A DNA stretch of 64,000 nucleotides from positions 158,273 to 222,272 of the forward strand of contig VMHB01000002.1 in assembly GCA_007378985.1 (NCBI GenBank), in the 5' to 3' direction. A program made the translations under genes and the position numbers. How positions within the stretch are numbered: the first letter of the stretch is position 1; the number at the start of each line of letters is the position of its first letter. Below, piece after piece: positions 17,027 to 64,000 of the stretch. A model generated the notes under the pieces. That model did not search any database, was not told the DNA's origin, and worked only from the letters and a program-made list of their open reading frames with translations. This DNA is from Parcubacteria group bacterium Greene0714_7 (GTDB taxonomy: Bacteria > Patescibacteriota > Minisyncoccia > Phycocordibacterales > Phycocordibacteraceae).

Positions 17027-17617
17027 GTGGAAAGCGTGTTATTTTTCGTCACTATGGTAGTAGCAATTGACCTCAAAACTATTTCTTCAGTGAATGTGGA
17101 AGAGCGCAAAAAGCTTGATATTCGAGCCGGAGACGTTGTTCGTGTTCACCAGAAAATTCAGGAAAAGGGCAAAACCCGTATTCAGATGTACGAAGGGCTT
17201 GTACTTGCACGAAAACACGGCACTGAAGCTGGTGCGACATTCACTGTCCGCGCTACTCTTTCTGGTGTTGGTGTTGAGAAAATCTTTCCCCTCTATTCTC
17301 CAATGATTGATAAGATAGACATTGTTCGTCGTTCAAAAGTGCGACGCGCAAAACTGTACTACATCCGCGATAAAGTCTCTCGTGAAATGCGTCGCCAGCT
17401 TCGTAAGATGAGCCTCGTGTCTTTGACAACAGGCAGTGACCGCGAAATGGCTGAAGCAGCATCTCTCGCTGAAGCAAAGGCTGCTGAAGATGCAGCTGCA
17501 GAAGAGGCAATCCGAGCAGAGCAGGCAAAAGCAGCTGAAGTCGTTGATGAGGCACCTATCGAAGTTTCTGAGCCTGTTACTCCCGAAGAAATAGAAGCAG
17601 CAAAAGAGGCGGTGTAA
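17027..17617 (+). CDS. rplS: 50S ribosomal protein L19 with Ala/Glu-rich C-terminal extension
   Basis: ...LDIRAGDVVRVHQKIQEKGKTRIQMYEGLVLARKHG... L19 core; true start may be internal Met at 17054; C-terminal ~70 aa low-complexity AEAKAAEDAAAEE. Confidence 0.8.
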   Translation: MESVLFFVTMVVAIDLKTISSVNVEERKKLDIRAGDVVRVHQKIQEKGKTRIQMYEGLVLARKHGTEAGATFTVRATLSGVGVEKIFPLYSPMIDKIDIVRRSKVRRAKLYYIRDKVSREMRRQLRKMSLVSLTTGSDREMAEAASLAEAKAAEDAAAEEAIRAEQAKAAEVVDEAPIEVSEPVTPEEIEAAKEAV

Positions 17618-17645
17618 GTTCAATATGTATTAAAACTGTGCAGAA

Positions 17646-17674
17646 ATGCACAGTTTTTCTTTTAAATAAATTGG
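17646..17674 (+). terminator. rho-independent terminator after rplS
   Basis: ctgtgcagaaatgcacag hairpin followed by tttttctttt. Confidence 0.6.
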
Positions 17675-17695
17675 TAGACGCTATATACTTGAGGT

Positions 17696-18397
17696 ATGGG
17701 AAAGCGTGGTCCAAAGCCAAGGCGTAAAAAACCTGTCGAATGGTCTTCTAATCTGGCATACGCCATCGGACTCATTGCTACGGACGGGTCTCTTTCTAAG
17801 AATGGACGGCATATTGAATTAACATCAAAAGATCGGGGGCAGTTGCAAACTTTCATGAGGTGTCTTGATATAGAGGTAAAAATCGGTATCAAAAAAGGTT
17901 ATGCCGATAAAACCGCGAACCGTGTTCAGTTTGGAGATGTGGTTTTTTATGATTTTCTTTTAGAGATTGGGCTTACTCCGAACAAAACTAAGACGATTGG
18001 AGCACTCGATATTCCTGACAAATATTTCTTTGATTTCTTGCGCGGGCATCATGATGGAGATGGGTCTTTTCATTCGTATTGGGATAAGCGTTGGAAATCG
18101 AGTTTCATGTTCTATCTTATTTTTGTGAGTGCAAGTAAGGAACACGTTGATTGGCTTCGTTCCAAACTGGAACGTTTTTTGGATGTACGGGGGCACATTA
18201 CGCACGGGAGAACGGCAACCGTATATCAGCTTAAATATGCGAAGGCTGAGTCTTTAAAAATTATCAAAAACATGTATTATTCCAATACAGTTCCTTGCCT
18301 CAAACGAAAAAGAGTTAAGATTTTTAAGGCTCTTCGTCGTGCAGGGAACTTGACAAAATTTGCCCAGGTGTTGAAACTGGTAGACATTTCACCTTGA
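17696..18397 (+). CDS. LAGLIDADG-family homing endonuclease, free-standing
   Basis: two LAGLIDADG motifs: LAYAIGLIATDGSL and FLRGHHDGDGSF; stop codon TGA lies inside anticodon loop of downstream tRNA-Leu. Confidence 0.75.
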   Translation: MGKRGPKPRRKKPVEWSSNLAYAIGLIATDGSLSKNGRHIELTSKDRGQLQTFMRCLDIEVKIGIKKGYADKTANRVQFGDVVFYDFLLEIGLTPNKTKTIGALDIPDKYFFDFLRGHHDGDGSFHSYWDKRWKSSFMFYLIFVSASKEHVDWLRSKLERFLDVRGHITHGRTATVYQLKYAKAESLKIIKNMYYSNTVPCLKRKRVKIFKALRRAGNLTKFAQVLKLVDISP

Positions 18398-18445
18398 GGT
18401 GGTGAAGCCCGCAAGGGCGTGGAGGTTCGAGTCCTCTCCTGGGCA
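18362..18445 (+). tRNA. tRNA-Leu (anticodon GAG), type II with long variable arm
   Basis: acceptor GCCCAGG/CCTGGGC, anticodon stem TCACC/GGTGA loop TTGAGGT, variable hairpin GCCC-GCAA-GGGC, T-arm GGAGG-TTCGAGT-CCTCT, discriminator A. Confidence 0.8.
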
Positions 18446-18506
18446 CACTTCGACTCGCAAGCTCGCTTCGGTGTAAACACATGAGGCGAGTGAGGCGGAG
18501 TAGTAT

Positions 18507-18582
18507 GGTGGTTGTAGCTCAGCTGGTAGAGCTCCGGTTTGTGGTACCGGCGGTCGTGGGTTCGAGCCCCATCAACCACCCA
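18507..18582 (+). tRNA. tRNA-His (anticodon GTG) with encoded G-1
   Basis: G-1 plus GTGGTTG acceptor pairing CAACCAC-C, D-arm GCTCAGCTGGTAGAGC, anticodon stem CCGGT/ACCGG loop TTGTGGT, T-arm GTGGG-TTCGAGC-CCCAT. Confidence 0.85.
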
Positions 18583-18616
18583 GAATGACACCCGCCTTGT
18601 GCGGGTTTTGTCATTC
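18583..18616 (+). terminator. rho-independent terminator after tRNA-His
   Basis: gaatgacacccgccttgtgcgggttttgtcattc hairpin with T-run. Confidence 0.6.
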
Positions 18617-18649
18617 TGGGTGGCTAAGCAAGCAAATAGTTTTGCTTGC

Positions 18650-18812
18650 GTCAGGGAATCGAAAAGCGGAACGATGTTTCTTGTCTCAAGAAACCGTGAG
18701 CTGGCGATTAGCGAATCGTGCCGAGAGGCTCTGCGACCGAGCCGAACAGTCGCCCTCGCCAGTATGATGAAGCGTCAGGTGAGTCGAGAGTTGTAGTCGA
18801 TTCCCTCCAGAT
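18650..18812 (+). promoter_or_regulatory. structured 5' leader upstream of ribE-ribH, candidate divergent FMN riboswitch
   Basis: closing helix GGGAATCGA...TCGATTCCC; internal segments resembling RFN element blocks (CTGGCGATTAGCGAA vs CCGGCGGTAGTAAAG; GAGCCGAACAGT vs GAAGCCGACAGT); sits immediately upstream of riboflavin genes. Confidence 0.3.
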
Positions 18813-18918
18813 AAATAGACTTAGGAATTTCACCTCGACTCCCTGTAGCCACCCCACGTAAGAACTTTAAAAAGCTTGCCCCTGTTCGTGCTCCCCGAAA
18901 AGGTTTATTGTAGTAATA

Positions 18919-19533
18919 GTGTTTACGGGCATTATCCGCAATGTGTCAACGGTGGTTACATCTGTTCCGGACAACGGTTGCTTGATTGTGCAGATTGCTA
19001 AGCCTCGCGGTTGGCGTACCTATATTGGGGACAGTATCTCTGTTAACGGAGTGTGTTCCACCGTGAAGGATAGTGGGCGCTTTTTGGTTTTTGAATATAT
19101 GCCCGAAACAGTTTTGGTTACCAATGTAGGAAAGTTAAAAACTAAAGACATAGTAAACATTGAACGCTCTTTGACATTGCGCGAACGCTTAGATGGGCAC
19201 ATTGTGCAAGGTCATATCGATACCACTGGCACCATCGCTCGAATTTTTTTAGAGGGTGCCGCTAGAGTTATAGTAATTACTTTGACCCAAAAGAAATCGC
19301 ACTTCATGAGGTTTGTTGTTCCTAAGGGGTCAATAGCAATCGAAGGTATCAGTTTGACTGTGGTTACTGTGACTAAAAGGAGCCTTACGGTAAAAGTTCT
19401 ACCCTATACATGGGGTCAGACTAACCTGCACACAAAAATTATTGGTGATGCGGTAAATATAGAGTTTGATATTATGGTTAAATATCTAGAGCGTTTAATG
19501 GATACTAACGTAACCTATGCAACTAAAAAATAA
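18919..19533 (+). CDS. ribE: riboflavin synthase alpha chain
   Basis: MFTGIIRNVS... duplicated lumazine-binding halves. Confidence 0.85.
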   Translation: MFTGIIRNVSTVVTSVPDNGCLIVQIAKPRGWRTYIGDSISVNGVCSTVKDSGRFLVFEYMPETVLVTNVGKLKTKDIVNIERSLTLRERLDGHIVQGHIDTTGTIARIFLEGAARVIVITLTQKKSHFMRFVVPKGSIAIEGISLTVVTVTKRSLTVKVLPYTWGQTNLHTKIIGDAVNIEFDIMVKYLERLMDTNVTYATKK

Positions 19534-19960
19534 GCCTCTTAAAAAAGTAAATGCTGCCAACCTCTCTGTTGGGGTTGTTGTTTCGAGGTTTAATGAGAGC
19601 ATCACCACTGAACTCCTAGGAACTGCTCTGCAGGCATTGAAAAAATCTAAGGTGAAGACTAACCGCATTGAAGTGATGTTTGTCCCTGGGGCAATGGAAA
19701 TTCCTTTTGCGTTACAAAAAATGGCTCGTAGAAAAAAATATAACTGCCTTGTTGCGTTAGGATGCGTTATCCGCGGTGATACGCCACATTTCGATTATGT
19801 GTGTAAGACTGCGCAAGAAGGAGTGCTTCGGGTCAGTCTTGATCACGTTGTTCCGATTGGTTTTGGGGTAGTAACTGTAAATACTGCAAAACAGGCAAAG
19901 GCACGGATACATATTGGATTCGACGCGGTGATGGCTGCTTTAGAGTTGGCAACACTGTAG
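19517..19960 (+). CDS. ribH: 6,7-dimethyl-8-ribityllumazine synthase
   Basis: ...VGVVVSRFNESITTELLGTALQALKKSKV...MFVPGAMEIPFALQKMA... lumazine synthase signature. Confidence 0.85.
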   Translation: MQLKNKPLKKVNAANLSVGVVVSRFNESITTELLGTALQALKKSKVKTNRIEVMFVPGAMEIPFALQKMARRKKYNCLVALGCVIRGDTPHFDYVCKTAQEGVLRVSLDHVVPIGFGVVTVNTAKQAKARIHIGFDAVMAALELATL

Positions 19961-20079
19961 TGGATGTTGCCTTGTCGCTCATCTCCGAGATTTGTAGCCG
20001 ACTCCAACTCCTGTAGCCACCCAAAAATAAAGAAGGGGATGCACATGCATTTTGAAGTGCCTGTGTTATATCTGTAGAT

Positions 20080-21039
20080 ATGCACACTAAAAAGCGTATT
20101 GGTGTATTCACGCCAATAAAGGCCACATTTGCATCAAACGCAATTGTCCGCGAGCTCTTGCCTGAGCGAACAGTGGAAGAGCTATACGAACTTCTTGATG
20201 CAAATTCAGGGATTGAGTATTACAAGGATCTCGACCCGCATAAGTCCGTGATTGAGAATGGCAAGGTGTACTGCGGTGACATCTGCGTGTCGGATCTCGA
20301 CCTATTCTTCTGGTATTACTTGCCGGATTATGATCCGACTAGCTTCGAATTCCAGGTTCTCGAGACTGTGAGTCGACGGACGAAGGTTTCGCCCAACCCT
20401 CAGGGGCTCGTGCGCAGTATGGATAAGTTCACAGCACACTCGGCTTTGAAAAATGCAGGGCTTCCGACACCCGATTTCGCACTGTTTCCTGCAACTGACA
20501 CAGCGTATGCGAAGAAGCTCTTCAAGAAGTGGGGGACTCTCCTGCTGAAGCCAAGACTTGGAAAATTTGGGCACGGCATTCTGAAGATCGACTCGGAAGG
20601 AATGCTCCGTGACGCCATAGCCTACGCAGCTTCGTCGCACCCGGATCCACTCCAGATTTTCGTTGAGCGTTTCGAAGAAAATGACATGGATCGCTGGATC
20701 AGCGCGACGAACATAGGAGGGCAAACTCTTTTCGGTTACCGAAAGAAGTCGACCAAATTCGTGGACGGGTGGAAAGTATATGACGAAGAGTTCAAGGGAG
20801 GGGAAGCATTCTACGTCGACCCGTCTCCTGTCGAGAACATTGCATCGGCAGCAGCCAAAGCGCTCGGCGCAGACATCGTCGGGTTCGATTGCATCTATGT
20901 GACCAGCCGGAAAGAGTATCTTATCGTCGACGAAAACACTTTTCCCGGCATCTACGAGGATTGTTTCGAGCAAGCAGGAAAAGGAAGTCTCGCAGAGAAT
21001 TTCTATCGGATTATCACAGAAAGCCTTAAGGTAGCCTAA
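20080..21039 (+). CDS. ATP-grasp ligase, RimK/GshB (glutathione synthetase)-like
   Basis: 319 aa; KPRLGKFGHGILKI, ..VERFEEN.., ..YLIVDENTFPG.. ATP-grasp blocks; overall layout parallels E. coli GshB (316 aa). Confidence 0.6.
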   Translation: MHTKKRIGVFTPIKATFASNAIVRELLPERTVEELYELLDANSGIEYYKDLDPHKSVIENGKVYCGDICVSDLDLFFWYYLPDYDPTSFEFQVLETVSRRTKVSPNPQGLVRSMDKFTAHSALKNAGLPTPDFALFPATDTAYAKKLFKKWGTLLLKPRLGKFGHGILKIDSEGMLRDAIAYAASSHPDPLQIFVERFEENDMDRWISATNIGGQTLFGYRKKSTKFVDGWKVYDEEFKGGEAFYVDPSPVENIASAAAKALGADIVGFDCIYVTSRKEYLIVDENTFPGIYEDCFEQAGKGSLAENFYRIITESLKVA

Positions 21040-21047
21040 TGTTTTCG

Positions 21048-23120
21048 TCAAGAAGTGAGCTTTTCGTACCCCTCAATCATTTTCTCGAGACTCACGATAT
21101 CTTCGGACATCTGACGAGCGTGCGTGAGGGCTATCTCTGACGCAATGTTTTGTGGCAGTAGTTTTCGCATATCTTTGTATCCAAGAGATCGTGCTTGGGA
21201 CAGTATGTCGTCAGCAGTGGTTCTGCGCCCTGCGAGCATATCTGTTAATGGTCGTAGCAGTTCGTCTAGCTCCTTGCCACCCAAGATTTTTGCGAGCGAA
21301 AGTAGCCGCCGACAATAGTAATGTATGTCGTCGTTCTCTAGTCCTTCGTGAGCGGCAGCGTGCTGTAGATATTTGCGCACATGCGTATCGGGTGCGATGC
21401 GTATGGTCTTTGCATGTTTGTCAAAGGCAAATGGCTCCGCTTTTGCCGAATCGTGCGGGACTACTTTGAGGTTACCGTCTTGGATGTGTCGCAAAATAAT
21501 TTGAAGCAGAAGCGACACCGCAAGAAGAACCGGAAGCCGGTTCATGTCCATGCCACGCTGTTCGAATGTGCCGTGCGCATTTATCTTAACCGGCGTCCAG
21601 TTGGTATCGAGTATGGAGCGATAGAAAGAGGCTCCCTTTACGCCGATGTCAGCGAGAGACTTCAGCCACGAGTCATTACGATCTCTAATCCTACTCAGAA
21701 GATCGGCTCCTGCATGTACATATGCAGGGAGACTGCCAAAGGTAGGTAAGCTGTTATATAAGCCTCGAGGGTACTCTAATTCTTCGCTACCACGATAGAC
21801 CAGCATTCGGGTGTCTTTGGCGAAATGCCGACCTTGGTAAAAAGGCGAGGATTGCATGAATGTGGTGAGCGCAGGGTCGGCGGCGATCAGGAAGTTAAAG
21901 GCGTTTACGAGGTATTCCTGGTTTTTAGAATCGGAGAGTTCTTTTAGGATGAGTTTTTGCGAGTCAAAGACGCCCCAAGGGAGAGCATAGTGGCAGTGGT
22001 AGCCTGCGACTCGCCCGGCTATTTGAAAGCGTGTTTTTCCAAAAAGTTTTGTCTGCACCCGATATCGTGGGTCACTTCGCATCTCGGGTGTAAATTTTCC
22101 AGGGTACGTCCCCAAAGGCAGGATGCCATACCCGGCTTCGCTCGCAGATTCAACAAGGAGTTTCAGGCCCGCAAGAAGACTTTTCATCGTGTCCGTTCCT
22201 TCAATGTTTGGGTAGCTTCCGAGCTCTATAAGATTATGCGCGCACTCCTTGGTAACTTCATGGGTTTTTGTTTTTTCAGCGATTTTTGAGAGTATCTTAT
22301 CGGCACCGGGTACGATGCGCCCTTCTGTATCAATAACGAAGAACTCTACCTCAAAGCCTATGGTGAATTTTTTAAGTGGGGCTTTTGGCGGTTTTTCTAT
22401 TGTGGGGTCATTGAGATATGCGTTATGCGCACGAGTGACGAGGCTTGAAATTTCCTTGTGTATTGGTTTCAACAGTCCCGAAGTCTCTAGGGGGCGTTTT
22501 GTCCCACGTCTGGTGACTCGGATGAGTTCTGCAAGTTCCCGAATTGATTTCTGGAACACGAACCGGATAAGGATGAGTATCACTCCGCAAAAAATGACAA
22601 GTTGTAGCAGGAAGCGAGCGAGGTTTCGAATCCAGGCATCAGTTACGGCTGTGGCTATATAGCCAGCATGTTGCATAAGAACCAGCGCCCCGGTAATCCG
22701 TTCGGCTGAATGGAGCGGAGCAATGGAAACATACATTTGAGTTTTGCCGGTGCCTACGTAAAAATTCTTCACATTGTTCGTTTGCATCACGGTTTCGATA
22801 TCGGCGAGAGAGACTGGTGGATTGTTTTGATACAAAGCGGAAAAGGCGAGTAGCTTAGGCGAACTGTCATACACGGCGAAGCCGGCTACGCGTTCATTTG
22901 CTGAAATACGATCCACCGTTTTTTGTACAGAAGCGACCGTGTCACTTCGTGCTAAAGCAGGCTCCACAGCTTCCGCCAGTGAATCAGAAAGTATGTTTGT
23001 CCTGTACGCTAAGTCAGAGGATAAATCGACTTGCTGATTGCGCACTTGCACAAAGGTAAACGAAAGGACGACGAGTGCCAGAAGCAGAGCGCCTCCGGCA
23101 ACAATGGCAAAGATTCTCAT
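21048..23120 (-). CDS. membrane-anchored sensor-like domain fused to glutamate-cysteine ligase family 2 (GCS2/YbdK-like carboxylate-amine ligase)
   Basis: ATG at 23120 (MRIFAIVAGG); TM1, ~160-aa extracytoplasmic domain, TM2 FLLQLVIFCGVILILIRFVF, then GCS2 N-terminal motif FTIGFEVEFFVIDTEGR and downstream GCS2-like region. Confidence 0.55.
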   Translation of the reverse strand: MRIFAIVAGGALLLALVVLSFTFVQVRNQQVDLSSDLAYRTNILSDSLAEAVEPALARSDTVASVQKTVDRISANERVAGFAVYDSSPKLLAFSALYQNNPPVSLADIETVMQTNNVKNFYVGTGKTQMYVSIAPLHSAERITGALVLMQHAGYIATAVTDAWIRNLARFLLQLVIFCGVILILIRFVFQKSIRELAELIRVTRRGTKRPLETSGLLKPIHKEISSLVTRAHNAYLNDPTIEKPPKAPLKKFTIGFEVEFFVIDTEGRIVPGADKILSKIAEKTKTHEVTKECAHNLIELGSYPNIEGTDTMKSLLAGLKLLVESASEAGYGILPLGTYPGKFTPEMRSDPRYRVQTKLFGKTRFQIAGRVAGYHCHYALPWGVFDSQKLILKELSDSKNQEYLVNAFNFLIAADPALTTFMQSSPFYQGRHFAKDTRMLVYRGSEELEYPRGLYNSLPTFGSLPAYVHAGADLLSRIRDRNDSWLKSLADIGVKGASFYRSILDTNWTPVKINAHGTFEQRGMDMNRLPVLLAVSLLLQIILRHIQDGNLKVVPHDSAKAEPFAFDKHAKTIRIAPDTHVRKYLQHAAAHEGLENDDIHYYCRRLLSLAKILGGKELDELLRPLTDMLAGRRTTADDILSQARSLGYKDMRKLLPQNIASEIALTHARQMSEDIVSLEKMIEGYEKLTS

Positions 23121-23220: not shown

Positions 23221-23258
23221 TATAAAACCCCCGCTCGTTCGAGCGGGGGTTTTATATT
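23221..23258 (-). terminator. rho-independent (bidirectional-looking) terminator
   Basis: aaaacccccgctcgttcgagcgggggtttta. Confidence 0.6.
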
Positions 23259-23287: not shown

Positions 23288-23980
23288 CTACTTTGTAGTG
23301 AACGTTGCTGGCCATGTGATGCTTACATGTCCCGCTGCGTTTGTTGTGTAGACTACGTAATAGTACTGAGTGTTTCTCTGTAGATTCGAGAGCAAGACAT
23401 TTTGTGATGCACGAAATGACGAGTCGGTTAATGCCGTATCACCACTCACACCCACACTACCTAGAATCCCATTTTCTTCACTCAAGACGATAGGGGAGAT
23501 GCTGTAACGCACAACACCTTGCGTCATCTGGTTTGTATTCCACGATATGTTCGCAGTGTTACTTCCTGTGCTTACTCCAACAGATGAGATAAGTGGCACC
23601 TGTGTATCTGCAGATGGCACCCCGCCCATTTTTGAATTAATTGAAGCCAAGGTCGTTGGTCCAACTCGTCCGTAACCAGTTGTTACCACGCTTCCTGTGC
23701 AGATGATGCTGTATGCACACTGAAAGCGCTGTACTGCGGATGTAGTAAGGACTCCGTAAAACCCTGTGACTAATCCTTCAGGATAAATACTTGTGTCCAA
23801 TGCAAGGTATGTCTGTAGAGTTGTTACGCTAGCATTGTTGTCTCCTGGGTCAAGTTGTCTGTCGATAGACGCGGCATGAGCTGAGACAGGGAGCATAAAG
23901 AGCATCCCAATAAGTGAAAGGGCGAATAGTGCAGAAGCTGCAACAATGGTGCGCTCTACCGTAGTTAGTGTTTTTGTCAT
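23288..23980 (-). CDS. secreted protein with peptidoglycan-binding-like and fibronectin-III-like domains
   Basis: N-terminal signal/anchor; LQTYLALDTSIYPEGLVTGFYGVLTTSAVQRFQ PG-binding-like; ANISWNTNQMTQGVVRYS...YYYVVYTTNAAGH FN3-like. Confidence 0.5.
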   Translation of the reverse strand: MTKTLTTVERTIVAASALFALSLIGMLFMLPVSAHAASIDRQLDPGDNNASVTTLQTYLALDTSIYPEGLVTGFYGVLTTSAVQRFQCAYSIICTGSVVTTGYGRVGPTTLASINSKMGGVPSADTQVPLISSVGVSTGSNTANISWNTNQMTQGVVRYSISPIVLSEENGILGSVGVSGDTALTDSSFRASQNVLLSNLQRNTQYYYVVYTTNAAGHVSITWPATFTTK

Positions 23981-25463: not shown

Positions 25464-26465
25464 ATGGAGACTGACATAATTGTTGACCTGCAATACGGAG
25501 ACTCAGGAAAGGGCAAAGTAGCTCATTTTTTGTGTAAGACGAAGAAGTATACGCACGTGCTTCGTTACAATGGTGGATGCAACGCGGGGCACACCATTTT
25601 TCATAAAGGTAAGAAGTTTATAACGCACCACATTCCTGCAGGAGTTTTTTGGGGCATTAAATCCATAATAGGGCCAGGATGTGTTGTTGATCCTGTACAG
25701 TTTCTGAAAGAAATTAAAATGCTTGAGGATGGGGGCATCAAAACTAAGGGTAAGATTTTTGTTGCAAAGAACACGCATGTCATTACTGCGTCACACAGAA
25801 ATGAAGATGCGGTGGATGTAGCAATTGGTACAACAAAACGGGGGAATGGACCAGCGTATCGTGATAAATACGCACGAATTGGTGTGCGTGCGGAGCAAGT
25901 AAAAGCACTAAAGCCTTACCTCATTGATCTCTATGAAGAGTTTTATGAAAATAAAAAAAAGGTCGTCATTCTAGGAGAGGGGGCGCAAGGTTTTGGGCTC
26001 GACATCGATTGGGGAGATTATCCGTTTGTTACTTCGAGTCATTGCACAACCGCAGGGGCTCTCTTGAATGGCTTACCACCACAGTCGGTGCGTCACGTGT
26101 GGGGTGTTGCAAAAATGTATGAGACCTATGTGGGCACCAAGAAGTTTGAGCCTAAGAATCCTGCATTTGAAGAGCTTCGACGAGTGGGCGAAGAGTACGG
26201 TTCAACAACAGGAAGACCACGCCAGTGTAATTGGATGAATGTTGATTTGATAGAGCAAGCAGTTCGTGTGAATGGCGTCACCCATCTCGTTTTTAATAAA
26301 ACAGATGTGATGCGAGAAGTTGGGGAGTGGGCCGTGCTCATCGGAGGAAAGGTCCGGGCATTCAAGGGAGAAAAAGAAATGAAGCATTTTCTCACTACAC
26401 GACTAAAGGCGTTAGGTATCCCCCCTCGGCAAGTTTATTTTTCGGAAAGTAGGGAAGCAATTTAG
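25464..26465 (+). CDS. purA: adenylosuccinate synthetase (compact form)
   Basis: LQYGDSGKGKVAHFL (QWGDEGKGK-like), GGCNAGHTIF, GTTKRGNGPAYRDK, GSTTGRPRQCNW motifs. Confidence 0.8.
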   Translation: METDIIVDLQYGDSGKGKVAHFLCKTKKYTHVLRYNGGCNAGHTIFHKGKKFITHHIPAGVFWGIKSIIGPGCVVDPVQFLKEIKMLEDGGIKTKGKIFVAKNTHVITASHRNEDAVDVAIGTTKRGNGPAYRDKYARIGVRAEQVKALKPYLIDLYEEFYENKKKVVILGEGAQGFGLDIDWGDYPFVTSSHCTTAGALLNGLPPQSVRHVWGVAKMYETYVGTKKFEPKNPAFEELRRVGEEYGSTTGRPRQCNWMNVDLIEQAVRVNGVTHLVFNKTDVMREVGEWAVLIGGKVRAFKGEKEMKHFLTTRLKALGIPPRQVYFSESREAI

Positions 26466-57605: not shown

Positions 57606-59787
57606 TGTTTTCTTCAGTCATAGTTGTTTCTCCTTCCGATGTAGTGAGGACATCGCGAGGTCTCGCACCGTCTGCTGCTCCTATGATGCCCTTGTCTTCC
57701 AGAATATCCATAAGTCTCGCAGCGCGGGCATAGCCGATGCGGAGCTTTCTTTGTAGATATGATGTTGATGCCTTACCTGCTTCTTCTACTATCTGTTTTG
57801 CCTCAGCAAAAAGGTCGTCATCGACATCATCGTCCTCCAAAGATGCTGAGAATATTGCATTCGGAGAGTCTGGTGTATTGCTCGAGAGGGTAATCGAGTC
57901 GAGTGATGGCTCGTTGTGTTTCCGTATGTATTCCACAACAGTCTTTACTTCGCTTTCAGAAATGAAGGCAGTTTGGATACGGTGTGGCTTTGACATATCA
58001 GCAGACTGGAAGAGCATGTCGCCAGCCCCGAGGAGTTTTTCTGCACCTGCTGCGTCGAGAATGGTGCGTGAGTCGATTTGTGAGGCTACCTGCAAAGCTA
58101 TACGCGCAGGTACGTTTGCCTTAATGAGTCCAGTAATGACATTCACTGAGGGGCGCTGTGTTGAAAGAATCAGGTGGATACCAACAGCACGGCTCATCTG
58201 CGCCAAGCGTACAATCGCAGCTTCGAGCTCTCGTGGGTATGTTTGCATGATGTCTGCAAGCTCATCGACAACAATTACGATGTAGGGCATTTGGTCGGGC
58301 ATTTCGTCGCCTGCCTGCGGTGAAGTCGTCGAAGGCTTCCATTTCGATGCGATGTTCTCGTGGTACGACTGCACATCGCGGACTGCGTGCGTCTCAAGAA
58401 TTGTGTAGCGTCGTTCCATTTCTTTCGCTGCCCACTTCAAAGAGAGGATTGCTTTCTTTGGGTCGGTAATGACTGGCGTAAGAAGATGGGGGATAGGGTT
58501 GTAGAGAGTGAGTTCCACGCGCTTTGGGTCAATCATGATGAAGCGAAGTGCCGAAGGGCCATTTCTGTAGAGAAGGGAGGTGATGAGTGCATGTATAGAC
58601 ACTGACTTGCCAGCACCTGTTGCACCTGCAATGAGGAGGTGTGGCATCTTACCGATGTTCGCAAAATGTGATGCGCCAGCGATGTCACGCCCAAGAGCAA
58701 CCATAAGAGGTCGTTTATCGCTCTCAAACTTAGTGTCTCCAAGAAGTGACCCCAAGCCCACCGTTGATTTTTTAGTGTTAGGCACTTCAATACCGACGAG
58801 AGACTTTCCAGGTATTGGGGCTTCAATACGAACAGGGTGTGCGGCGAGTGCAAGCTCGAGGTTGTTTTGAAGAGAGAGTATCTTCTGTAGGCGCACTCCT
58901 TCGGCGGGTTTGAGTGCATAGCGGGTCACGGTAGGGCCAATAGACACCTCGTCCATCTCTACAGTGATACCGAAGTTTTGGAGTGTTCGCTTAATGAGAT
59001 TCGCGTTTGCTTTAATATCCCCATTGTCGGGCTTCCCTTTGTCTCGTTCCAATAATGAAAGTGGGGGAGGATTGTATGCTTGCCCAATTGGTGCAAAGGC
59101 GAAACTTGCCTCTGGCTCGGCTTCTATTTTCTTTTCTTTTATTTTTTCCTTTCGAATTGGTTTCTCTTCCTCTACTTCATTCTGAGGAGTTGCTATCTTT
59201 ATTTCATCATCAGCATCGTCATCAGCGGGCTTCTCGGAGGCGTCTCCAAGTATTTTCTTTGACCAAAGCAATTGAAATTGTGGCATCGCAAAGTGCGGGA
59301 TACCAAGCGGTGTATCGAGAGCAAGAAGGGTCCCTACAACCGCGATACCTCCAAGAATTATAGAGGCGAGCGTGATATCAAAAAGTGAAGTGAAAGGGAG
59401 GGCGATCCAATGTCCCGCAAGCCCGCCATGGTTATCAATAAGTGAGAGTATGGCAATACCCGATAAAAAAAGAATCGATGCACCAAAGACTCGCGTACCA
59501 CCGAAGCCCGGATGTTCTCGTTGTCGAAATAATCCGATACCTAGCAAAAGTAATGAAACAGGAATAAGGAAGTATCCGATGCCGAAAAAAGAACTCAGCG
59601 CTTCGTAGATAAAATTGCCAGCAGGCCCTCCTTTACCAAGAGGGCCTAACAGAAAGAGTGCCGCTGCAACCATGGCAAGGATACCGTAGATACTCTTCGT
59701 GGTTTCTGGTTTCAGATTGAGCGAAAGAGAGGGGGTAGGAATACCAGATTTTTTCTTACCATTCTTCTCTCTTTTTTTCTTTGCCAT
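57592..59787 (-). CDS. ftsK: DNA translocase FtsK/SpoIIIE
   Basis: N-terminal 4-TM domain, Walker A LLIAGATGAGKS, Walker B VVIVDELADL, C-terminal gamma winged-helix. Confidence 0.9.
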   Translation of the reverse strand: MAKKKREKNGKKKSGIPTPSLSLNLKPETTKSIYGILAMVAAALFLLGPLGKGGPAGNFIYEALSSFFGIGYFLIPVSLLLLGIGLFRQREHPGFGGTRVFGASILFLSGIAILSLIDNHGGLAGHWIALPFTSLFDITLASIILGGIAVVGTLLALDTPLGIPHFAMPQFQLLWSKKILGDASEKPADDDADDEIKIATPQNEVEEEKPIRKEKIKEKKIEAEPEASFAFAPIGQAYNPPPLSLLERDKGKPDNGDIKANANLIKRTLQNFGITVEMDEVSIGPTVTRYALKPAEGVRLQKILSLQNNLELALAAHPVRIEAPIPGKSLVGIEVPNTKKSTVGLGSLLGDTKFESDKRPLMVALGRDIAGASHFANIGKMPHLLIAGATGAGKSVSIHALITSLLYRNGPSALRFIMIDPKRVELTLYNPIPHLLTPVITDPKKAILSLKWAAKEMERRYTILETHAVRDVQSYHENIASKWKPSTTSPQAGDEMPDQMPYIVIVVDELADIMQTYPRELEAAIVRLAQMSRAVGIHLILSTQRPSVNVITGLIKANVPARIALQVASQIDSRTILDAAGAEKLLGAGDMLFQSADMSKPHRIQTAFISESEVKTVVEYIRKHNEPSLDSITLSSNTPDSPNAIFSASLEDDDVDDDLFAEAKQIVEEAGKASTSYLQRKLRIGYARAARLMDILEDKGIIGAADGARPRDVLTTSEGETTMTEENNGTA

Positions 59788-61636: not shown

Positions 61637-64000
61637 TATGACTTCAATTGTAAACAGTTCTCTCACGAAAGTTGCAGCGATCGTCGTTGCAGTTTCGTTG
61701 GTAGCTGGATTTGCATTCACTTTCACAGCGTCTAAGGCAGAAGCCGCAACGCTCACAAGTTCGCAAATCTCAGCTATCGTTTCTCTCTTGCAGTCATTCG
61801 GTGCTGACGCTTCGACTATTGCGAACGTTAGTGCGTCTCTCAATGGGACAGCTCCAACAGGGGGCTCGACTGGCGGCTCAATGACAGGCGGTTGTACCTT
61901 CACGAGAAACCTCACGGTTGGCTCGAAAGGTGACGATGTAACTTGTCTTCAGAAGGCACTCATTGCAGCTGGCTACTCGGTTCCAGCAGGCGCAACTGGC
62001 TACTTCGGTTCCCAGACTGTGACTGCAGTTATCGCATGGCAGAAGGCAGCAGGAGTTTCTCCTGCAGTAGGCTACTTCGGTGCAATCTCTCGCGCAGCAT
62101 TCGGCAAGACTTCAGGTGGTTCCACTCCAGTAGTGACAACACCAACAGGTACTGGCCTTGCTGTCGCAGCAGGCACACAACCAGCAAACTCGCTTTCACC
62201 ACAAGGTGCATCGCGCGTTCCGTTTACTCGCTTCACACTCACTGCAGGCGCTGACGGCGATGTAGTTGTGAACGGTGTTACGGTCCAGAAAGATGGACTC
62301 GGTCAGGATGCAGCTTTTGCTGGTATCGTCCTTATCGATGAGTCAACTGGAGCACAGCTTGGTATCGCAAAGACATTGAACTCAAACCATCAGACGACTG
62401 TCGGTGGTACCTTCACTGTTGCAAAGGGAACAACGAAGACATTCTTGCTCGCAGGAAACATGGCTTCGTCACTCTCTTCGTACGCTGGTGAAGCACCAGG
62501 TATCGCTCTTGTTGCGGTTAACACCTCAGCAACCGTTTCTGGCTCACTTCCAATTGTCGGTGCTCATAACACCAACAACTCAACATTGACTGTCGGTTCA
62601 GTGACTTTAAATTCTTCAAATGCGTTCGCTTCAAACTCAGCGCAGGCGAAAGAAATTGGTACAACCGCATACAAGACAACAGGATTCCGCCTCACAGCGG
62701 GGTCTGCTGAAGACCTTCGCCTCAGAAATATCCGCTGGAACCAAACTGGCTCCGTATCATCTACTGACATTGCAAATGTAATGACAGTCGTTAACGGAAC
62801 AGCATACCCAGCAACTGTTTCTTCAGACGGAAAATACTATGACACGAACCTCGGTTCAGGCGTGGTAATTCCAAAGGGCAATCAGATTGATGTCTATGTT
62901 CAATTTGACATTGTTGGTGCAGGTGCGGCTAACCGCACGGTTATCTTCGATGTTGACAAGAACACTGACATCTACGCAACAGGTGAGACTTACGGCTACG
63001 GCGTTTCGCCAGCAGTTACCAGCACTGCGGTTCCAACGACTCGCAGCACTGCTAACTACACTGTAGGAACATCGGGAACCCCATTCATCTACTCTACGGT
63101 AGTAACTGTCTCTGGCGCTTCGATTACATCGATCGGCAAGGCAAACGAAGTTCCTGCGCAGAACATCGCAATCAACCTTCCTAACCAGCCTCTCGGTGGT
63201 TACGTAGTTGACTTGAAGGGTGAGGCAATGACTGTTCAGTCATCTGTCTTCACTATTGCTTCAACGACTGGTTCAGGTACTGGCCTCCTCACCAATCTTA
63301 CGATTGTTGATGAAAACGGTGCAGTAGTTGCAGGTCCTGTTGATGGCGTCTACTCGACTGCTACAACGCAGACTGCTACTTTCACTGACTCAATCACTTA
63401 CAAGATTGGTCGCCATGTCTACACACTCCGTGGTAAGGTTGCTTCAAACATCGGAAACGGTGGTACATACATTGTCACCACAGTTCCTTCGTCTGGATGG
63501 ACCAACGTCAAGGGTGAAACAACTGGCAACACAATCTCGCTTTCAGCAAATGGTACGTTCACTATGAACACCATGACCGTGAAGGCAGGTGCAGTTGCTG
63601 TTGGTGTCGCTACATCTCCTGCTTCGCAAAACATCACTGCCGGCGGTTCACAAACTTTGTTTGCAAACTTCCAGTACGATGCAACGCAATCAGGTGAAGA
63701 TGTACGATTCTCTTCAATTCCTACTGTTCTTACATTCGCAACTGCTGCGGTCACAGACCTCACAGCTTGCGCAGCGTACGATGGTACAACTCAACTTTCG
63801 ACAGGTTCGAATGTTGTAAATCCTTCAGGTTCAACAGGTGCAACTCAGACATTCACGCTTGATACGCCTGTTACGGTTGCAAAGGGCACAGTTAAGACTA
63901 TCGGTATTAAATGTAATGTTTCTGGTTCGGCAGCGAACACCGGAACATTCTCATTCGATGCTGGTGCAGCTTCTGCCTACACCTTCACAGGTGCAACCTC
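61637..64000 (+). CDS. large secreted surface protein with peptidoglycan-binding domain and Thr/Ser/Gly-rich beta-repeats, partial (runs off window end)
   Basis: ATG at 61637; signal/anchor AAIVVAVSLVAGFAFTFTASKAEA; PG_binding_1-like CLQKALIAAGYSVPAGATGYFGSQTVTAVIAWQKAAGV; open frame to 64000. Confidence 0.6.

What the first reader, a model, noticed from the sequence alone, without database searches (positions are those of the whole stretch)
20080..23120. Convergent gene pair: membrane-sensor::GCS2 fusion plus GshB/RimK-like ATP-grasp ligase, in a segment that appears GC-richer than its surroundings
21048..23120 encodes an N-terminal module (TM, ~160-aa extracytoplasmic domain, TM, short linker) fused to a glutamate-cysteine-ligase family-2 (YbdK-like) enzyme. 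The family-2 N-terminal motif is FTIGFEVEFFVIDTEGR. The convergent neighbour 20080..21039 is a 319-aa ATP-grasp enzyme laid out like bacterial glutathione synthetase. Together they look like a gamma-glutamyl-cysteine / glutathione-like thiol peptide pathway under control of an extracellular sensor domain. This is an unusual architecture and an unexpected capability for a minimal CPR-type genome. The block appears GC-richer than surrounding genes by eye (not computed), which would suggest horizontal acquisition.
Basis: partly seen in the sequence, partly recalled or inferred. Interest (0 to 1): 0.65.

Follow-up and report, generated by a model that had tools for sequence, protein, structure and literature searches.

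The report
Membrane-sensor ligase paired with ATP-grasp ligase
A tiny-genome (CPR) bacterium carries two adjacent ATP-dependent amide-bond ligases that probably build a small glutamyl peptide in two steps, and the first has acquired a membrane sensor module otherwise found only on trehalose-phosphate synthases; the product and the signal are unknown.

Summary
20080..21039(+) encodes an intact 319-aa ATP-grasp ligase. 21048..23120(-) encodes a 690-aa protein: TM1, a ~135-aa extracytoplasmic Cache/PDC-like domain, TM2, a HAMP-like hairpin, a flexible Pro-rich linker, then a YbdK-like GCS2 ligase. The block is the GC-richest 3 kb of the window.

- The ATP-grasp matches no GshB sequence model. It belongs to the LysX/RimK/GshB fold group.
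- Its family lies next to GCS2-superfamily genes in at least 13 of about 19 loci, with three different GCS2 subfamilies and three gene orientations. This supports a two-step, GshA/GshB-like ligase pathway.
- The GCS2 subfamily is not unexpected for CPR. It is typical of CPR and DPANN genomes: 125 confirmed matches in species-representative genomes, usually without this ATP-grasp.
- The sensor fusion arose once, in a small Paceibacterota clade.
- The sensor module's other homologues are nearly all fused to GT20 trehalose-6-phosphate synthases, none to histidine kinases. I infer stress-linked control.
- The GC anomaly belongs to the cassette: the same genes are GC-poor in a GC-rich relative. The pair predates a 97%-identical strain.

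The product is unknown. Glutathione itself is unlikely to be shown by these data.

The parts
20080..21039 (+). ATP-grasp amide ligase, 319 aa, of the LysX/RimK/GshB fold group. It belongs to an uncharacterised family that is gene-linked to GCS2-type ligases.
21040..21047 (.). 8-nt spacer between the two converging stop codons. It leaves no room for a terminator.
   Evidence: Sequence. No terminator found there.
21048..23120 (-). Whole fusion gene, 690 aa plus stop: sensor module fused to a GCS2 ligase.
   Evidence: Near-identical proteins are annotated only as hypothetical (MBP6945919.1, TSD05778.1).
21051..22361 (-). Cytoplasmic YbdK-like GCS2 carboxylate-amine ligase domain (residues 254-690), of the CPR/DPANN 'type A' subfamily, including a helical C-terminal extension.
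   Evidence: PF04107 at 40.6 bits against a cutoff of 21. Profile hit to YbdK 1r8g, E=2.6e-6, aligning the ExE, HxH and GTxExRxMD motifs. Foldseek: YbdK TM 0.73-0.76, plant GCL, GshF and E. coli GshA. Invariant E257, E259, E292, E299, H375, H377, E520 and R522.
22362..22412 (-). Pro/Lys-rich flexible linker (residues 237-253). It corresponds to the disordered N-terminal tail of stand-alone family members.
   Evidence: pLDDT below 50 for residues 241-249. Alignment with stand-alone homologues.
22413..22550 (-). HAMP-like two-helix hairpin (residues 191-236).
   Evidence: AF2 places a helix to residue 204, a loop at 206-218 and a helix at 218-236. R204, G206 and E223 are nearly invariant across the module family. 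Pfam HAMP is hit by 3 of 44 family members, best E 1.7e-4, but not by the window protein. AtoS N-terminal region match.
22551..22631 (-). Transmembrane helix 2 (residues about 164-190).
   Evidence: Kyte-Doolittle peak at residues 164-194. AF2 helix 153-204.
22632..23036 (-). Extracytoplasmic single Cache/PDC-like domain (residues about 29-163).
   Evidence: Foldseek: WalK extracellular domain 4ywz/5is1 TM 0.69; DcuS, CitA and DctB. Weak CHASE8 hit. Family members hit sCache_3_2, CHASE8 and Cache_WalK. 59-79% identical among fusion orthologues.
23037..23120 (-). Start codon and transmembrane helix 1 (residues 1-28).
   Evidence: Hydropathy. The start is shared with homologues P0002-P0004.
23224..23253 (-). 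Intrinsic, palindromic terminator of the upstream gene (23288..23980). It shows that the fusion gene has its own start and is not the 755-aa ORF.
   Evidence: Sequence read directly. The plus-strand arm was also flagged.

Best explanation
This is a two-gene cassette for ATP-dependent, non-ribosomal synthesis of a small glutamyl-type peptide or amide. It works in two successive ligations, with the same logic as GshA/GshB.

Step 1 (inferred). The GCS2/YbdK-like domain activates a carboxylate, most likely the gamma-carboxyl of glutamate, as an acyl-phosphate and joins it to an amine.

Step 2 (inferred). The LysX/RimK/GshB-type ATP-grasp enzyme adds an amino acid to a free carboxylate of that product.

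In one small Paceibacterota clade, the first ligase captured the N-terminal module of a family of membrane-bound trehalose-6-phosphate synthases. That module consists of TM1, a Cache/PDC domain, TM2 and a HAMP-like hairpin. It places the enzyme at the inner face of the membrane, probably as a dimer.

I infer that the module ties enzyme activity to an extracytoplasmic or envelope cue. The only other known output of this module is a stress-protectant enzyme, so the cue is most plausibly osmotic or another stress.

Shown: the domain identities, the topology, an intact catalytic residue set, the gene linkage, and the single origin of the fusion. Inferred: the substrates, the order of the steps, and any signalling.
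For: Domain identities:
- GCS2 scores above the Pfam cutoff, matches YbdK by profile and has the YbdK/GCL fold.
- The catalytic Glu, His and Arg residues are invariant in 27 homologues.
- The ATP-grasp fold and its invariant ATP/Mg residues are present.

Gene linkage:
- The ATP-grasp family lies within 300 bp of a GCS2-superfamily gene in at least 13 of about 19 distinct loci.
- The partners are type A (window/L016, L128, L127, the L001 group, L007, L081, L090, L110/111, L114), type B plant-GCL-like (TIGR01436, 258 bits; L010, L096-L099) and type C YbdK-like (NF010043, 327 bits; L012, L101, L102).
- The hosts span CPR, an alphaproteobacterium and Woesearchaeota.
- Within the fusion clade the pair stays adjacent through convergent (window, L016, L128), co-directional 17-bp (L127) and divergent (L001) layouts, and in two different neighbourhoods.

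Glutamyl chemistry:
- A GGACT gamma-glutamyl cyclotransferase-like gene sits directly upstream of the pair in L007.
- An FGase (N-formylglutamate amidohydrolase family) gene overlaps type A GCS2 in 23 of 79 loci.
- Other type A loci carry a different second ligase: CP_ATPgrasp/GSP_synth-like in 6 loci and RimK-like in 4.

Sensor module:
- There are two TM segments, the outside domain resembles those of WalK, DcuS and CitA, and a HAMP-like hairpin follows.
- Of 149 representative homologues of the module, 22 of the 24 that are at least 330 aa long continue into GT20 trehalose-6-phosphate synthase. None carries GCS2, and no histidine-kinase domain turned up in the 53 scanned against Pfam.
- The fusion proteins form one clade nested among stand-alone Patescibacteria enzymes.
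- The outside domain is 59-79% conserved among orthologues.
Against: - No substrate is identified. All equivalog-level models fail, and E. coli YbdK itself has only weak gamma-Glu-Cys ligase activity (established knowledge).
- Only 3 of 79 species-representative loci of the type A GCS2 family have this ATP-grasp nearby, so the GCS2 enzyme usually works without it.
- In the L001 population the ATP-grasp carries a 1-nt frameshift while the fusion gene is intact.
- Some ATP-grasp family members stand alone (L008, L014, L103, L106).
- The HAMP-to-enzyme junction is a Pro-rich, low-pLDDT linker rather than a continuous signalling helix. This fits a tether better than allosteric coupling.
- The window protein itself does not reach any Pfam Cache or HAMP threshold.
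- The link to stress rests only on the shared module and on MscS, Kef-like and sugar-phosphate-synthase genes being fairly common neighbours of type A GCS2.
Confidence: 0.5

Rival explanations
1. The pair is a true glutathione pathway. The GCS2 domain makes gamma-Glu-Cys and the ATP-grasp is a non-canonical glutathione synthetase that adds glycine.
For: - The fold matches GCLs.
- The same ATP-grasp family also pairs with plant-type-GCL-like and YbdK/'glutamate--cysteine ligase'-like genes.
- Adjacent 'GshAB' genes have been annotated in nanohaloarchaea (PMC10266531).
Against: - No GshB sequence model matches the window protein.
- All GshA equivalog cutoffs are missed by a wide margin: 41 bits against 176-437.
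- Most members of this GCS2 family have no second ligase nearby.
- No glutathione-using gene was seen in the neighbourhoods examined.
- The best sequence relatives of the ATP-grasp add glutamate, not glycine.
Confidence: 0.12
2. The ligases modify a macromolecule rather than make a free metabolite. The target could be a protein C-terminus (as for RimK on S6, LysX/ArgX on LysW, or PafA on Pup) or a cell-envelope component, and the membrane anchor brings the enzyme to its substrate.
For: - The closest structures to the ATP-grasp are LysX/ArgX and RimK, which act on protein C-termini.
- The GCS2/GS fold also includes the Pup ligase (PMC2588565 and PMC3511204, listed).
- Envelope-related neighbours occur: a PG_binding/fn3 protein and DUF2914 in the window, and Peptidase_M15 in L007.
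Against: - No LysW-like or other small conserved partner gene recurs near the pair.
- No rpsF is nearby.
- The C-termini of the family are not conserved and do not end in Glu.
- The same membrane module is fused to trehalose-6-phosphate synthase, whose substrates are soluble, so the module is not a device for reaching a membrane substrate.
Confidence: 0.13
3. The N-terminal module only anchors and dimerises the enzyme at the membrane. It transmits no signal.
For: - The Pro-rich linker at residues 237-253 has low pLDDT.
- That linker is simply the retained disordered tail of stand-alone enzymes.
- No ligand-binding motif was identified.
- The window protein is below Pfam thresholds for Cache and HAMP.
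Against: - The outside domain and the HAMP-like hairpin are conserved (59-79% and 42-85% among orthologues).
- Across about 300 homologues, R204, G206, E223, G80 and P135 are nearly invariant.
- A plain anchor would not need a folded Cache-like domain plus a HAMP-like hairpin, an arrangement otherwise typical of receptors.
Confidence: 0.3
4. The block is a recently acquired foreign island, and its GC content marks the donor.
For: - It is the GC-richest 3 kb of the window.
- The ATP-grasp has the highest GC3 of any credible gene in the window.
- It lies in a variable region: a 2.4-kb strain-specific block abuts it.
- The pair occurs in a different genomic context in L127.
- The fusion gene keeps GC3 at 0.48-0.52 in hosts whose background GC3 ranges from 0.37 to 0.72.
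Against: - The pair is present at 97.2% nucleotide identity in a related strain.
- Against L001, its protein divergence (fusion 71%, ATP-grasp 66-69%) equals that of the flanking PurA (71%), TerC (66%) and L19 (79%).
- Its codon-usage deviation is unremarkable, ranking 19 and 44 of 64.
- The fusion clade nests inside Patescibacteria sequences.
Confidence: 0.1

Closest known systems
YbdK / GCS2 carboxylate-amine ligases (PF04107; E. coli YbdK 1R8G, Salmonella 1TT4; Haloferax GshA)
   Same: Same fold and the same metal/ATP-binding motifs (ExE, HxH, GTxExRxMD). The Pfam hit is above the cutoff.
   Different: About 15-17% identity to the solved structures. The domain has a helical C-terminal extension of about 130 aa. 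It forms a separate subfamily largely confined to CPR and DPANN genomes. It fails all NCBIfam equivalog cutoffs. Here it is membrane-tethered through a sensor module.
GshA + GshB (and the fused GshF) two-step glutathione synthesis
   Same: A GCL-fold ligase is gene-linked to an ATP-grasp ligase of the GshB structural group.
   Different: The ATP-grasp matches no GshB sequence model and is closer to LysX, RimK and MptN. The product is unknown. The pairing is optional for the GCS2 family.
RimK / LysX / ArgX / MptN / CofF alpha-L-glutamate-type ATP-grasp ligases
   Same: These are the best sequence and structure matches, with the same three-domain layout and the W-x-x-x...K/R-G-G loop.
   Different: All family cutoffs are missed (rimK_fam 37 bits against 143). 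There is no S6, LysW or cofactor context. The family is instead linked to GCS2 ligases.
Transmembrane receptors with a Cache/PDC outside domain plus HAMP (WalK, DcuS, CitA, DctB sensor kinases)
   Same: The input module has the same topology and fold.
   Different: There is no HisKA or HATPase output. The output is a biosynthetic ligase, and the junction is a flexible linker rather than a signalling helix.
Uncharacterised membrane-bound trehalose-6-phosphate synthases (TM-Cache-TM-HAMP-like::GT20, e.g. OGH66207.1 from Ca. Magasanikbacteria, PYV27934.1 from Acidobacteria)
   Same: The N-terminal module is homologous, up to 38% identical over 230 aa.
   Different: The output enzyme is GT20, not GCS2. 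In those proteins a longer helical segment joins the module to the enzyme.
Operon-linked ATP-grasp and COOH-NH2 (GS/GCS2-like) peptide ligase systems described by Iyer et al. 2009 (as cited in PMC4431377)
   Same: The same general principle applies: linked ligases of different folds carry out successive ligations.
   Different: I could not read the original paper, so I do not know whether this particular family pair is listed there. The sensor fusion is not mentioned in any paper I found.

Membership tests
GCS2 (PF04107) / YbdK-like carboxylate-amine ligase superfamily | Match to the Pfam model above its gathering score | tested here: met
   40.6 bits against a cutoff of 21, residues 255-431.
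GCS2 (PF04107) / YbdK-like carboxylate-amine ligase superfamily | GCL/YbdK fold with conserved metal- and ATP-binding residues | tested here: met
   Foldseek: 1r8g and 1tt4 TM 0.73-0.76, plus 2gwc, 3ln7 and 1v4g. The profile alignment to YbdK covers the ExE, HxH and GTxExRxMD motifs. Those residues are invariant.
Glutamate--cysteine ligase (GshA equivalogs, NCBIfam) | Score above the curated equivalog or subfamily cutoff | tested here: not met
   The best hits are 41 bits (TIGR02050, cutoff 176) and 39.5 bits (NF010041, cutoff 332).
Glutamate--cysteine ligase (GshA equivalogs, NCBIfam) | Gamma-Glu-Cys ligase activity | not testable with these tools
   Needs an enzyme assay or complementation of an E. 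coli gshA mutant.
Bacterial glutathione synthetase GshB (PF02951/PF02955, TIGR01380) | Match to the GSH-S sequence models | tested here: not met
   No hit at E<=1 in Pfam or NCBIfam for the window protein. There is only a 12.4-bit match to the GshF C-terminus.
Bacterial glutathione synthetase GshB (PF02951/PF02955, TIGR01380) | GshB-like three-domain fold | tested here: inconclusive
RimK family alpha-L-glutamate ligase (TIGR00768 / PF08443) | Score above the family cutoff | tested here: not met
   rimK_fam 37.2 bits against 143.4, and PF08443 16 bits against 21. Many homologues do carry a precomputed PF08443 hit.
RimK family alpha-L-glutamate ligase (TIGR00768 / PF08443) | Action on ribosomal protein S6, or an rpsF/rimK context | tested here: not met
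   No rpsF lies near the gene in any locus examined. The recurrent neighbour is a GCS2 ligase. The activity itself is not testable here.
ATP-grasp superfamily | ATP-grasp fold with conserved ATP-binding Lys residues and Mg-binding acidic/Asn residues | tested here: met
   AF2 pLDDT 92.6. K116, K157, the G161/G164/G166 loop, E196, D270, D284 and N286 are invariant.
Cache/PDC extracytoplasmic sensor domains | PDC-type alpha/beta fold placed between two TM helices | tested here: met
   Foldseek: WalK 4ywz/5is1 (TM 0.69, E 4e-4), DcuS 3by8, CitA 2v9a. Two TM segments.
Cache/PDC extracytoplasmic sensor domains | Match to a Pfam Cache/CHASE model above its cutoff | tested here: not met
   CHASE8 scores 17.6-20.2 bits against 27. 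Family members give weak sCache_3_2, CHASE8 and Cache_WalK hits.
HAMP domain (PF00672) | Match to the Pfam HAMP model | tested here: inconclusive
   The window protein has no hit at E<=1. 3 of 44 module homologues hit HAMP, best E 1.7e-4. AF2 shows a helix-loop-helix of the right length, and the E-I-x-x-L...N motif is present.
Two-component sensor histidine kinase | HisKA and HATPase_c output domains | tested here: not met
   Both are absent from the window protein. They were not found in any of the 53 module homologues scanned against Pfam. In a separate check of 149 representatives for GT20 and GCS2, 22 of the 24 that are at least 330 aa continue into GT20.

The most novel reading that the evidence does not exclude
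The TM-Cache-TM-HAMP-like module defines a class of one-protein transmembrane receptors whose output is the direct switching of a biosynthetic enzyme for a protective small molecule, with no kinase, second messenger or transcription factor in between. The enzyme is trehalose-6-phosphate synthase in most members and a GCS2 ligase feeding a two-ligase peptide pathway here. In this reading, the large CPR/DPANN GCS2 family makes a so far unidentified gamma-glutamyl compound, either a thiol or an osmolyte, that matters to ultra-small cells.
Probability: 0.25. Interest if true: 0.75.

Novelty: new variant of a known kind. Interest (0 to 1): 0.55.

Why it matters
CPR bacteria and DPANN archaea have very few biosynthetic and regulatory genes. 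Yet a conserved YbdK-like ligase family gave 125 confirmed matches in their species-representative genomes, and its product is unknown.

This locus offers two handles on that family. First, the recurrent partnership with an ATP-grasp ligase points to a two-step peptide product. The same ATP-grasp family partners with three non-orthologous GCL-like enzymes, which argues that they share an intermediate. Second, the captured sensor module is otherwise dedicated to trehalose-6-phosphate synthases, which points to stress-linked control.

If the module does signal, it would show a membrane receptor acting directly on a metabolic enzyme. That would be an economical regulatory design suited to minimal genomes.

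Tried and rejected
- A single-sequence search of the fusion against PDB found nothing. A profile was needed.
- I checked whether the 196-aa 'PAS_4' gene next to the ATP-grasp in L008 is a split-off copy of the sensor module. It is unrelated.
- I looked for a conserved third component: the GGACT gene, small ORFs beside the pair, and the 307-aa gene in L012. None recurs in other loci.
- The window holds no FGase gene, no GT20 gene and no second copy of the sensor module.
- The automatic promoter and terminator scan was uninformative. I found the terminator upstream of the fusion gene by reading the sequence.
- Rfam and tRNA scans found only five tRNAs.
- Iyer et al. 2009 (PMC3268129) is not held.
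- Searches for membrane-bound sensor::OtsA proteins, GCS2+RimK clusters, FGase+GCS2, and GCS2 in CPR/DPANN gave no paper on this architecture.
- Codon-usage deviation as a sign of HGT was not significant.
- Recent foreign acquisition is rejected on divergence and strain sharing.

Full report
**1. What is at the coordinates.**

The window holds two converging ORFs: 20080..21039(+), 319 aa, and a minus-strand ORF ending at 21048.
- The upstream gene 23288..23980(-) stops at 23290-23288. A perfect hairpin with flanking A and T runs follows at about 23224-23253, inside the putative extension.
- Four of the five fusion homologues start at the same Met.
- The stop codons of the two genes are 8 nt apart.

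The window is about 97-98% identical to contig JAGOSG010000002.1 of a Candidatus Paceibacterota MAG.

**2. The fusion protein.**

Pfam GCS2 scores 40.6 bits against a cutoff of 21. NCBIfam gives only sub-threshold hits to YbdK-type and 'glutamate--cysteine ligase' models.

A single-sequence PDB search found nothing. A 27-sequence profile hits E. coli YbdK (1r8g, E=2.6e-6) and aligns the ExE, HxH and GTxExRxMD motifs. Those residues are invariant in the family.

The AlphaFold model (mean pLDDT 84.9) shows, in order:
- a long N-terminal helix;
- an alpha/beta domain at residues 62-151;
- a second long helix at 153-204;
- a disordered loop at 206-218;
- a helix at 218-236;
- a low-confidence Pro-rich linker at 237-253;
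- a confident catalytic domain.

Foldseek matches the catalytic part to YbdK (TM 0.73-0.76), plant GCL, GshF and E. coli GshA. It matches the outside domain to the extracellular PAS/PDC domains of WalK (TM 0.69), DcuS, CitA and DctB. Hydropathy gives exactly two TM segments, residues 1-28 and 164-194.

The window protein reaches no Pfam Cache or HAMP threshold. The best is CHASE8 at 17.6-20.2 bits against 27. Among 44 module homologues, 7 hit sCache_3_2, 7 hit CHASE8, 3 hit HAMP and 2 hit Cache_WalK.

**3. The ATP-grasp protein.**

It matches no GshB model. The best NCBIfam hits are MptN (E=8e-16), LysX, rimK_fam and CofF, all far below their cutoffs.

The model is confident (pLDDT 92.6).
- Foldseek ranks RimK and LysX/ArgX first, at TM 0.71-0.78.

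The protein therefore belongs to the LysX/RimK/GshB structural group, and specificity cannot be read from this. The ATP- and Mg-binding residues are invariant, so it should be active.

**4. Are the two genes a functional pair?**

I collected loci from both sides.

From the ATP-grasp side, a GCS2-superfamily gene lies within 300 bp in at least 13 of about 19 distinct loci. These partners fall into three subfamilies that do not cross-hit each other's profiles:
- type A, the window's subfamily;
- type B, plant-GCL-like (TIGR01436, 258 bits);
- type C, YbdK-like (NF010043, 327 bits; TIGR02050 above its cutoff).

The hosts include CPR bacteria, an alphaproteobacterium with a 2.3-Mb contig, and Woesearchaeota.

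Within the fusion clade the pair is adjacent in every contig long enough to tell. It is convergent in the window, L016 and L128. It is co-directional and 17 bp apart in L127, which has a different neighbourhood (SmpB, FtsH). It is divergent in the L001 group.

Linkage that survives rearrangement and non-orthologous replacement of the partner is strong evidence for a shared pathway.

The coupling is nevertheless optional.
- Only 3 of 79 species-representative type A loci carry this ATP-grasp.
- The ATP-grasp is frameshifted in the L001 population.
- Some ATP-grasp genes stand alone.

**5. The GCS2 family in context.**

Type A GCS2 proteins (about 440-480 aa) are widespread in Patescibacteria and DPANN archaea. 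More than 100 clusters were listed, and there were 125 tblastn-confirmed matches in species-representative genomes. The capability is therefore typical of small-genome lineages, not unexpected.

The commonest neighbour is an FGase-family (N-formylglutamate amidohydrolase) gene that overlaps the start of GCS2, in 23 of 79 loci. Other recurrent neighbours are:
- Amidohydro_2 (13 loci);
- MscS channels (11);
- Kef/NhaP-like transporters (8);
- a GT4+HAD sugar-phosphate-synthase-like gene (8);
- a CP_ATPgrasp/GSP_synth-like ligase immediately downstream (6);
- inositol monophosphatase (5);
- RimK-like genes (4).

One locus (L007) has a GGACT gamma-glutamyl cyclotransferase-like gene directly upstream of the pair.

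The FGase and GGACT neighbours point to glutamyl chemistry, and the alternative second ligases fit a two-step scheme. None of this identifies the product.

**6. Origin of the sensor module.**

Only five 90%-identity clusters carry the fusion. In a neighbour-joining tree they form one clade nested among stand-alone Patescibacteria enzymes, so the fusion arose once.

A full-sensitivity search with residues 1-250 found 315 homologues. Of the 149 listed other than the fusions, 22 of the 24 that are at least 330 aa long continue into GT20 trehalose-6-phosphate synthase. The other two have garbled tails. None carries GCS2, and no histidine-kinase domain appeared in the 53 scanned against Pfam. Named examples come from Candidatus Magasanikbacteria and Acidobacteria.

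The module was thus taken from a membrane-bound OtsA-like lineage. It was joined after the second HAMP-like helix to the disordered Lys-rich tail that stand-alone GCS2 enzymes already have.

Among fusion orthologues whose catalytic domain is 80-91% identical, the outside domain stays 59-79% identical. Several module residues are nearly invariant across the whole family, which argues for more than a simple anchor. Against rigid signal coupling, the junction is flexible.

**7. Composition and horizontal transfer.**

The block is the GC-richest 3-kb stretch of the window (0.493 against 0.449). ATP-grasp GC3 is 0.575 and fusion GC3 is 0.489, against a background of 0.411 +/- 0.059.

The anomaly belongs to the genes, not to this host. 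The fusion gene has GC3 of 0.48-0.52 in four hosts whose background GC3 runs from 0.37 to 0.72, so in L001 it is GC-poor relative to its neighbours.

Evidence against a recent foreign origin:
- Protein divergence between the window and L001 is the same for the pair (71%; 66-69%) as for the flanking PurA (71%), TerC (66%) and L19 (79%).
- A 97%-identical strain carries the pair.
- Codon-usage deviation is unremarkable.

I conclude that there was no recent acquisition from a distant donor. Exchange of the cassette among related CPR genomes, or some composition constraint, remains possible. The locus does lie in a variable region: a 2.4-kb strain-specific block abuts it.

**8. Mechanism, with the status of each step.**

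Shown: domain identities, topology, intact catalytic residues, gene linkage, single origin of the fusion, and the OtsA-type origin of the module.

Inferred:
- the GCS2 domain forms an acyl-phosphate on a carboxylate, probably the gamma-carboxyl of Glu, and ligates an amine;
- the ATP-grasp adds an amino acid to the product;
- the module dimerises the enzyme at the membrane and may couple its activity to an outside or envelope cue, probably stress-related.

I put about 0.5 on this overall reading, about 0.12 on true glutathione, about 0.13 on modification of a macromolecule, and about 0.3 on the module being a passive anchor.

**9. Comparison with what is known.**

Operon-linked ATP-grasp and COOH-NH2 ligases are a described theme (Iyer et al. 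2009, as cited in PMC4431377). GCS2 homologues in DPANN have been noted from genome mining (PMC7278568). Adjacent 'GshAB' genes have been annotated in nanohaloarchaea (PMC10266531).

The proteins here are annotated only as hypothetical. I found no paper on a sensor::GCS2 or sensor::OtsA architecture. I rate the finding as a new variant of a known kind, of moderate interest.

Noticed in passing
window 17610-20009: A 2.4-kb block is absent from the 97%-identical MAG contig (L016), which has about 380 bp with only a tRNA-Leu at that position. The block carries a LAGLIDADG_3 endonuclease-like gene (17696-18397), tRNA-Leu (18362-18446), tRNA-His (18508-18581), riboflavin synthase (18919-19533) and lumazine synthase (19517-19960). 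It ends 70 bp before the ATP-grasp start.
   Followed up: partly
P0189-P0337, P0338, P0340 (no window coordinates): There is a sizeable uncharacterised family of membrane-bound trehalose-6-phosphate synthases, about 740-760 aa, with the architecture TM-Cache/PDC-TM-HAMP-like::GT20. It occurs in Ca. Magasanikbacteria, Acidobacteria and many metagenomes, and I found no description of it in the literature searched.
   Followed up: partly
L016-L094, e.g. L083:6884-7984: An FGase-family (PF05013) gene overlaps the start of the CPR/DPANN-type GCS2 gene in 23 of 79 species-representative loci. This is an apparent operon of an amidohydrolase and a ligase with unknown function.
   Followed up: partly
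L001:6740-7710 (also L003, L105): In the relative whose fusion protein is 71% identical, the ATP-grasp gene is split by a 1-nt deletion (...TATGCG^CCTCG...). The same break appears in JGI, Logan and NCBI assemblies of what may be one population.
   Followed up: partly
L019:2393-5382 and L067:2302-6011: Two copies of the type A GCS2 gene lie on the same strand in each of two loci: adjacent (about 90 bp apart) in L019 and about 1 kb apart in L067.
   Followed up: no
L026:9413-10645 and five other loci: A circularly permuted ATP-grasp / glutathionylspermidine-synthase-like gene of about 410 aa lies immediately downstream of type A GCS2 in six loci. It is a different second ligase from the one in the window.
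   Followed up: no
window 23224-23253: A perfect palindromic hairpin flanked by AAAA and TTTT could terminate transcription in both directions. It lies between the PG_binding/fn3 gene and the fusion gene.
   Followed up: yes
window 25464-26465: The adenylosuccinate synthetase is only 333 aa, a short form. Its length is conserved in the relatives L001, L008 and L128, at 339-344 aa.
   Followed up: no
window 61943-62254 and 58001-59000, 62001-64000: An ORF has atypical composition (GC 0.55, GC1 0.375, GC2 0.625, GC3 0.66), so it is probably not coding. The 1-kb windows at 58-59 kb and 62-64 kb are locally GC-rich (0.49-0.51).
   Followed up: no
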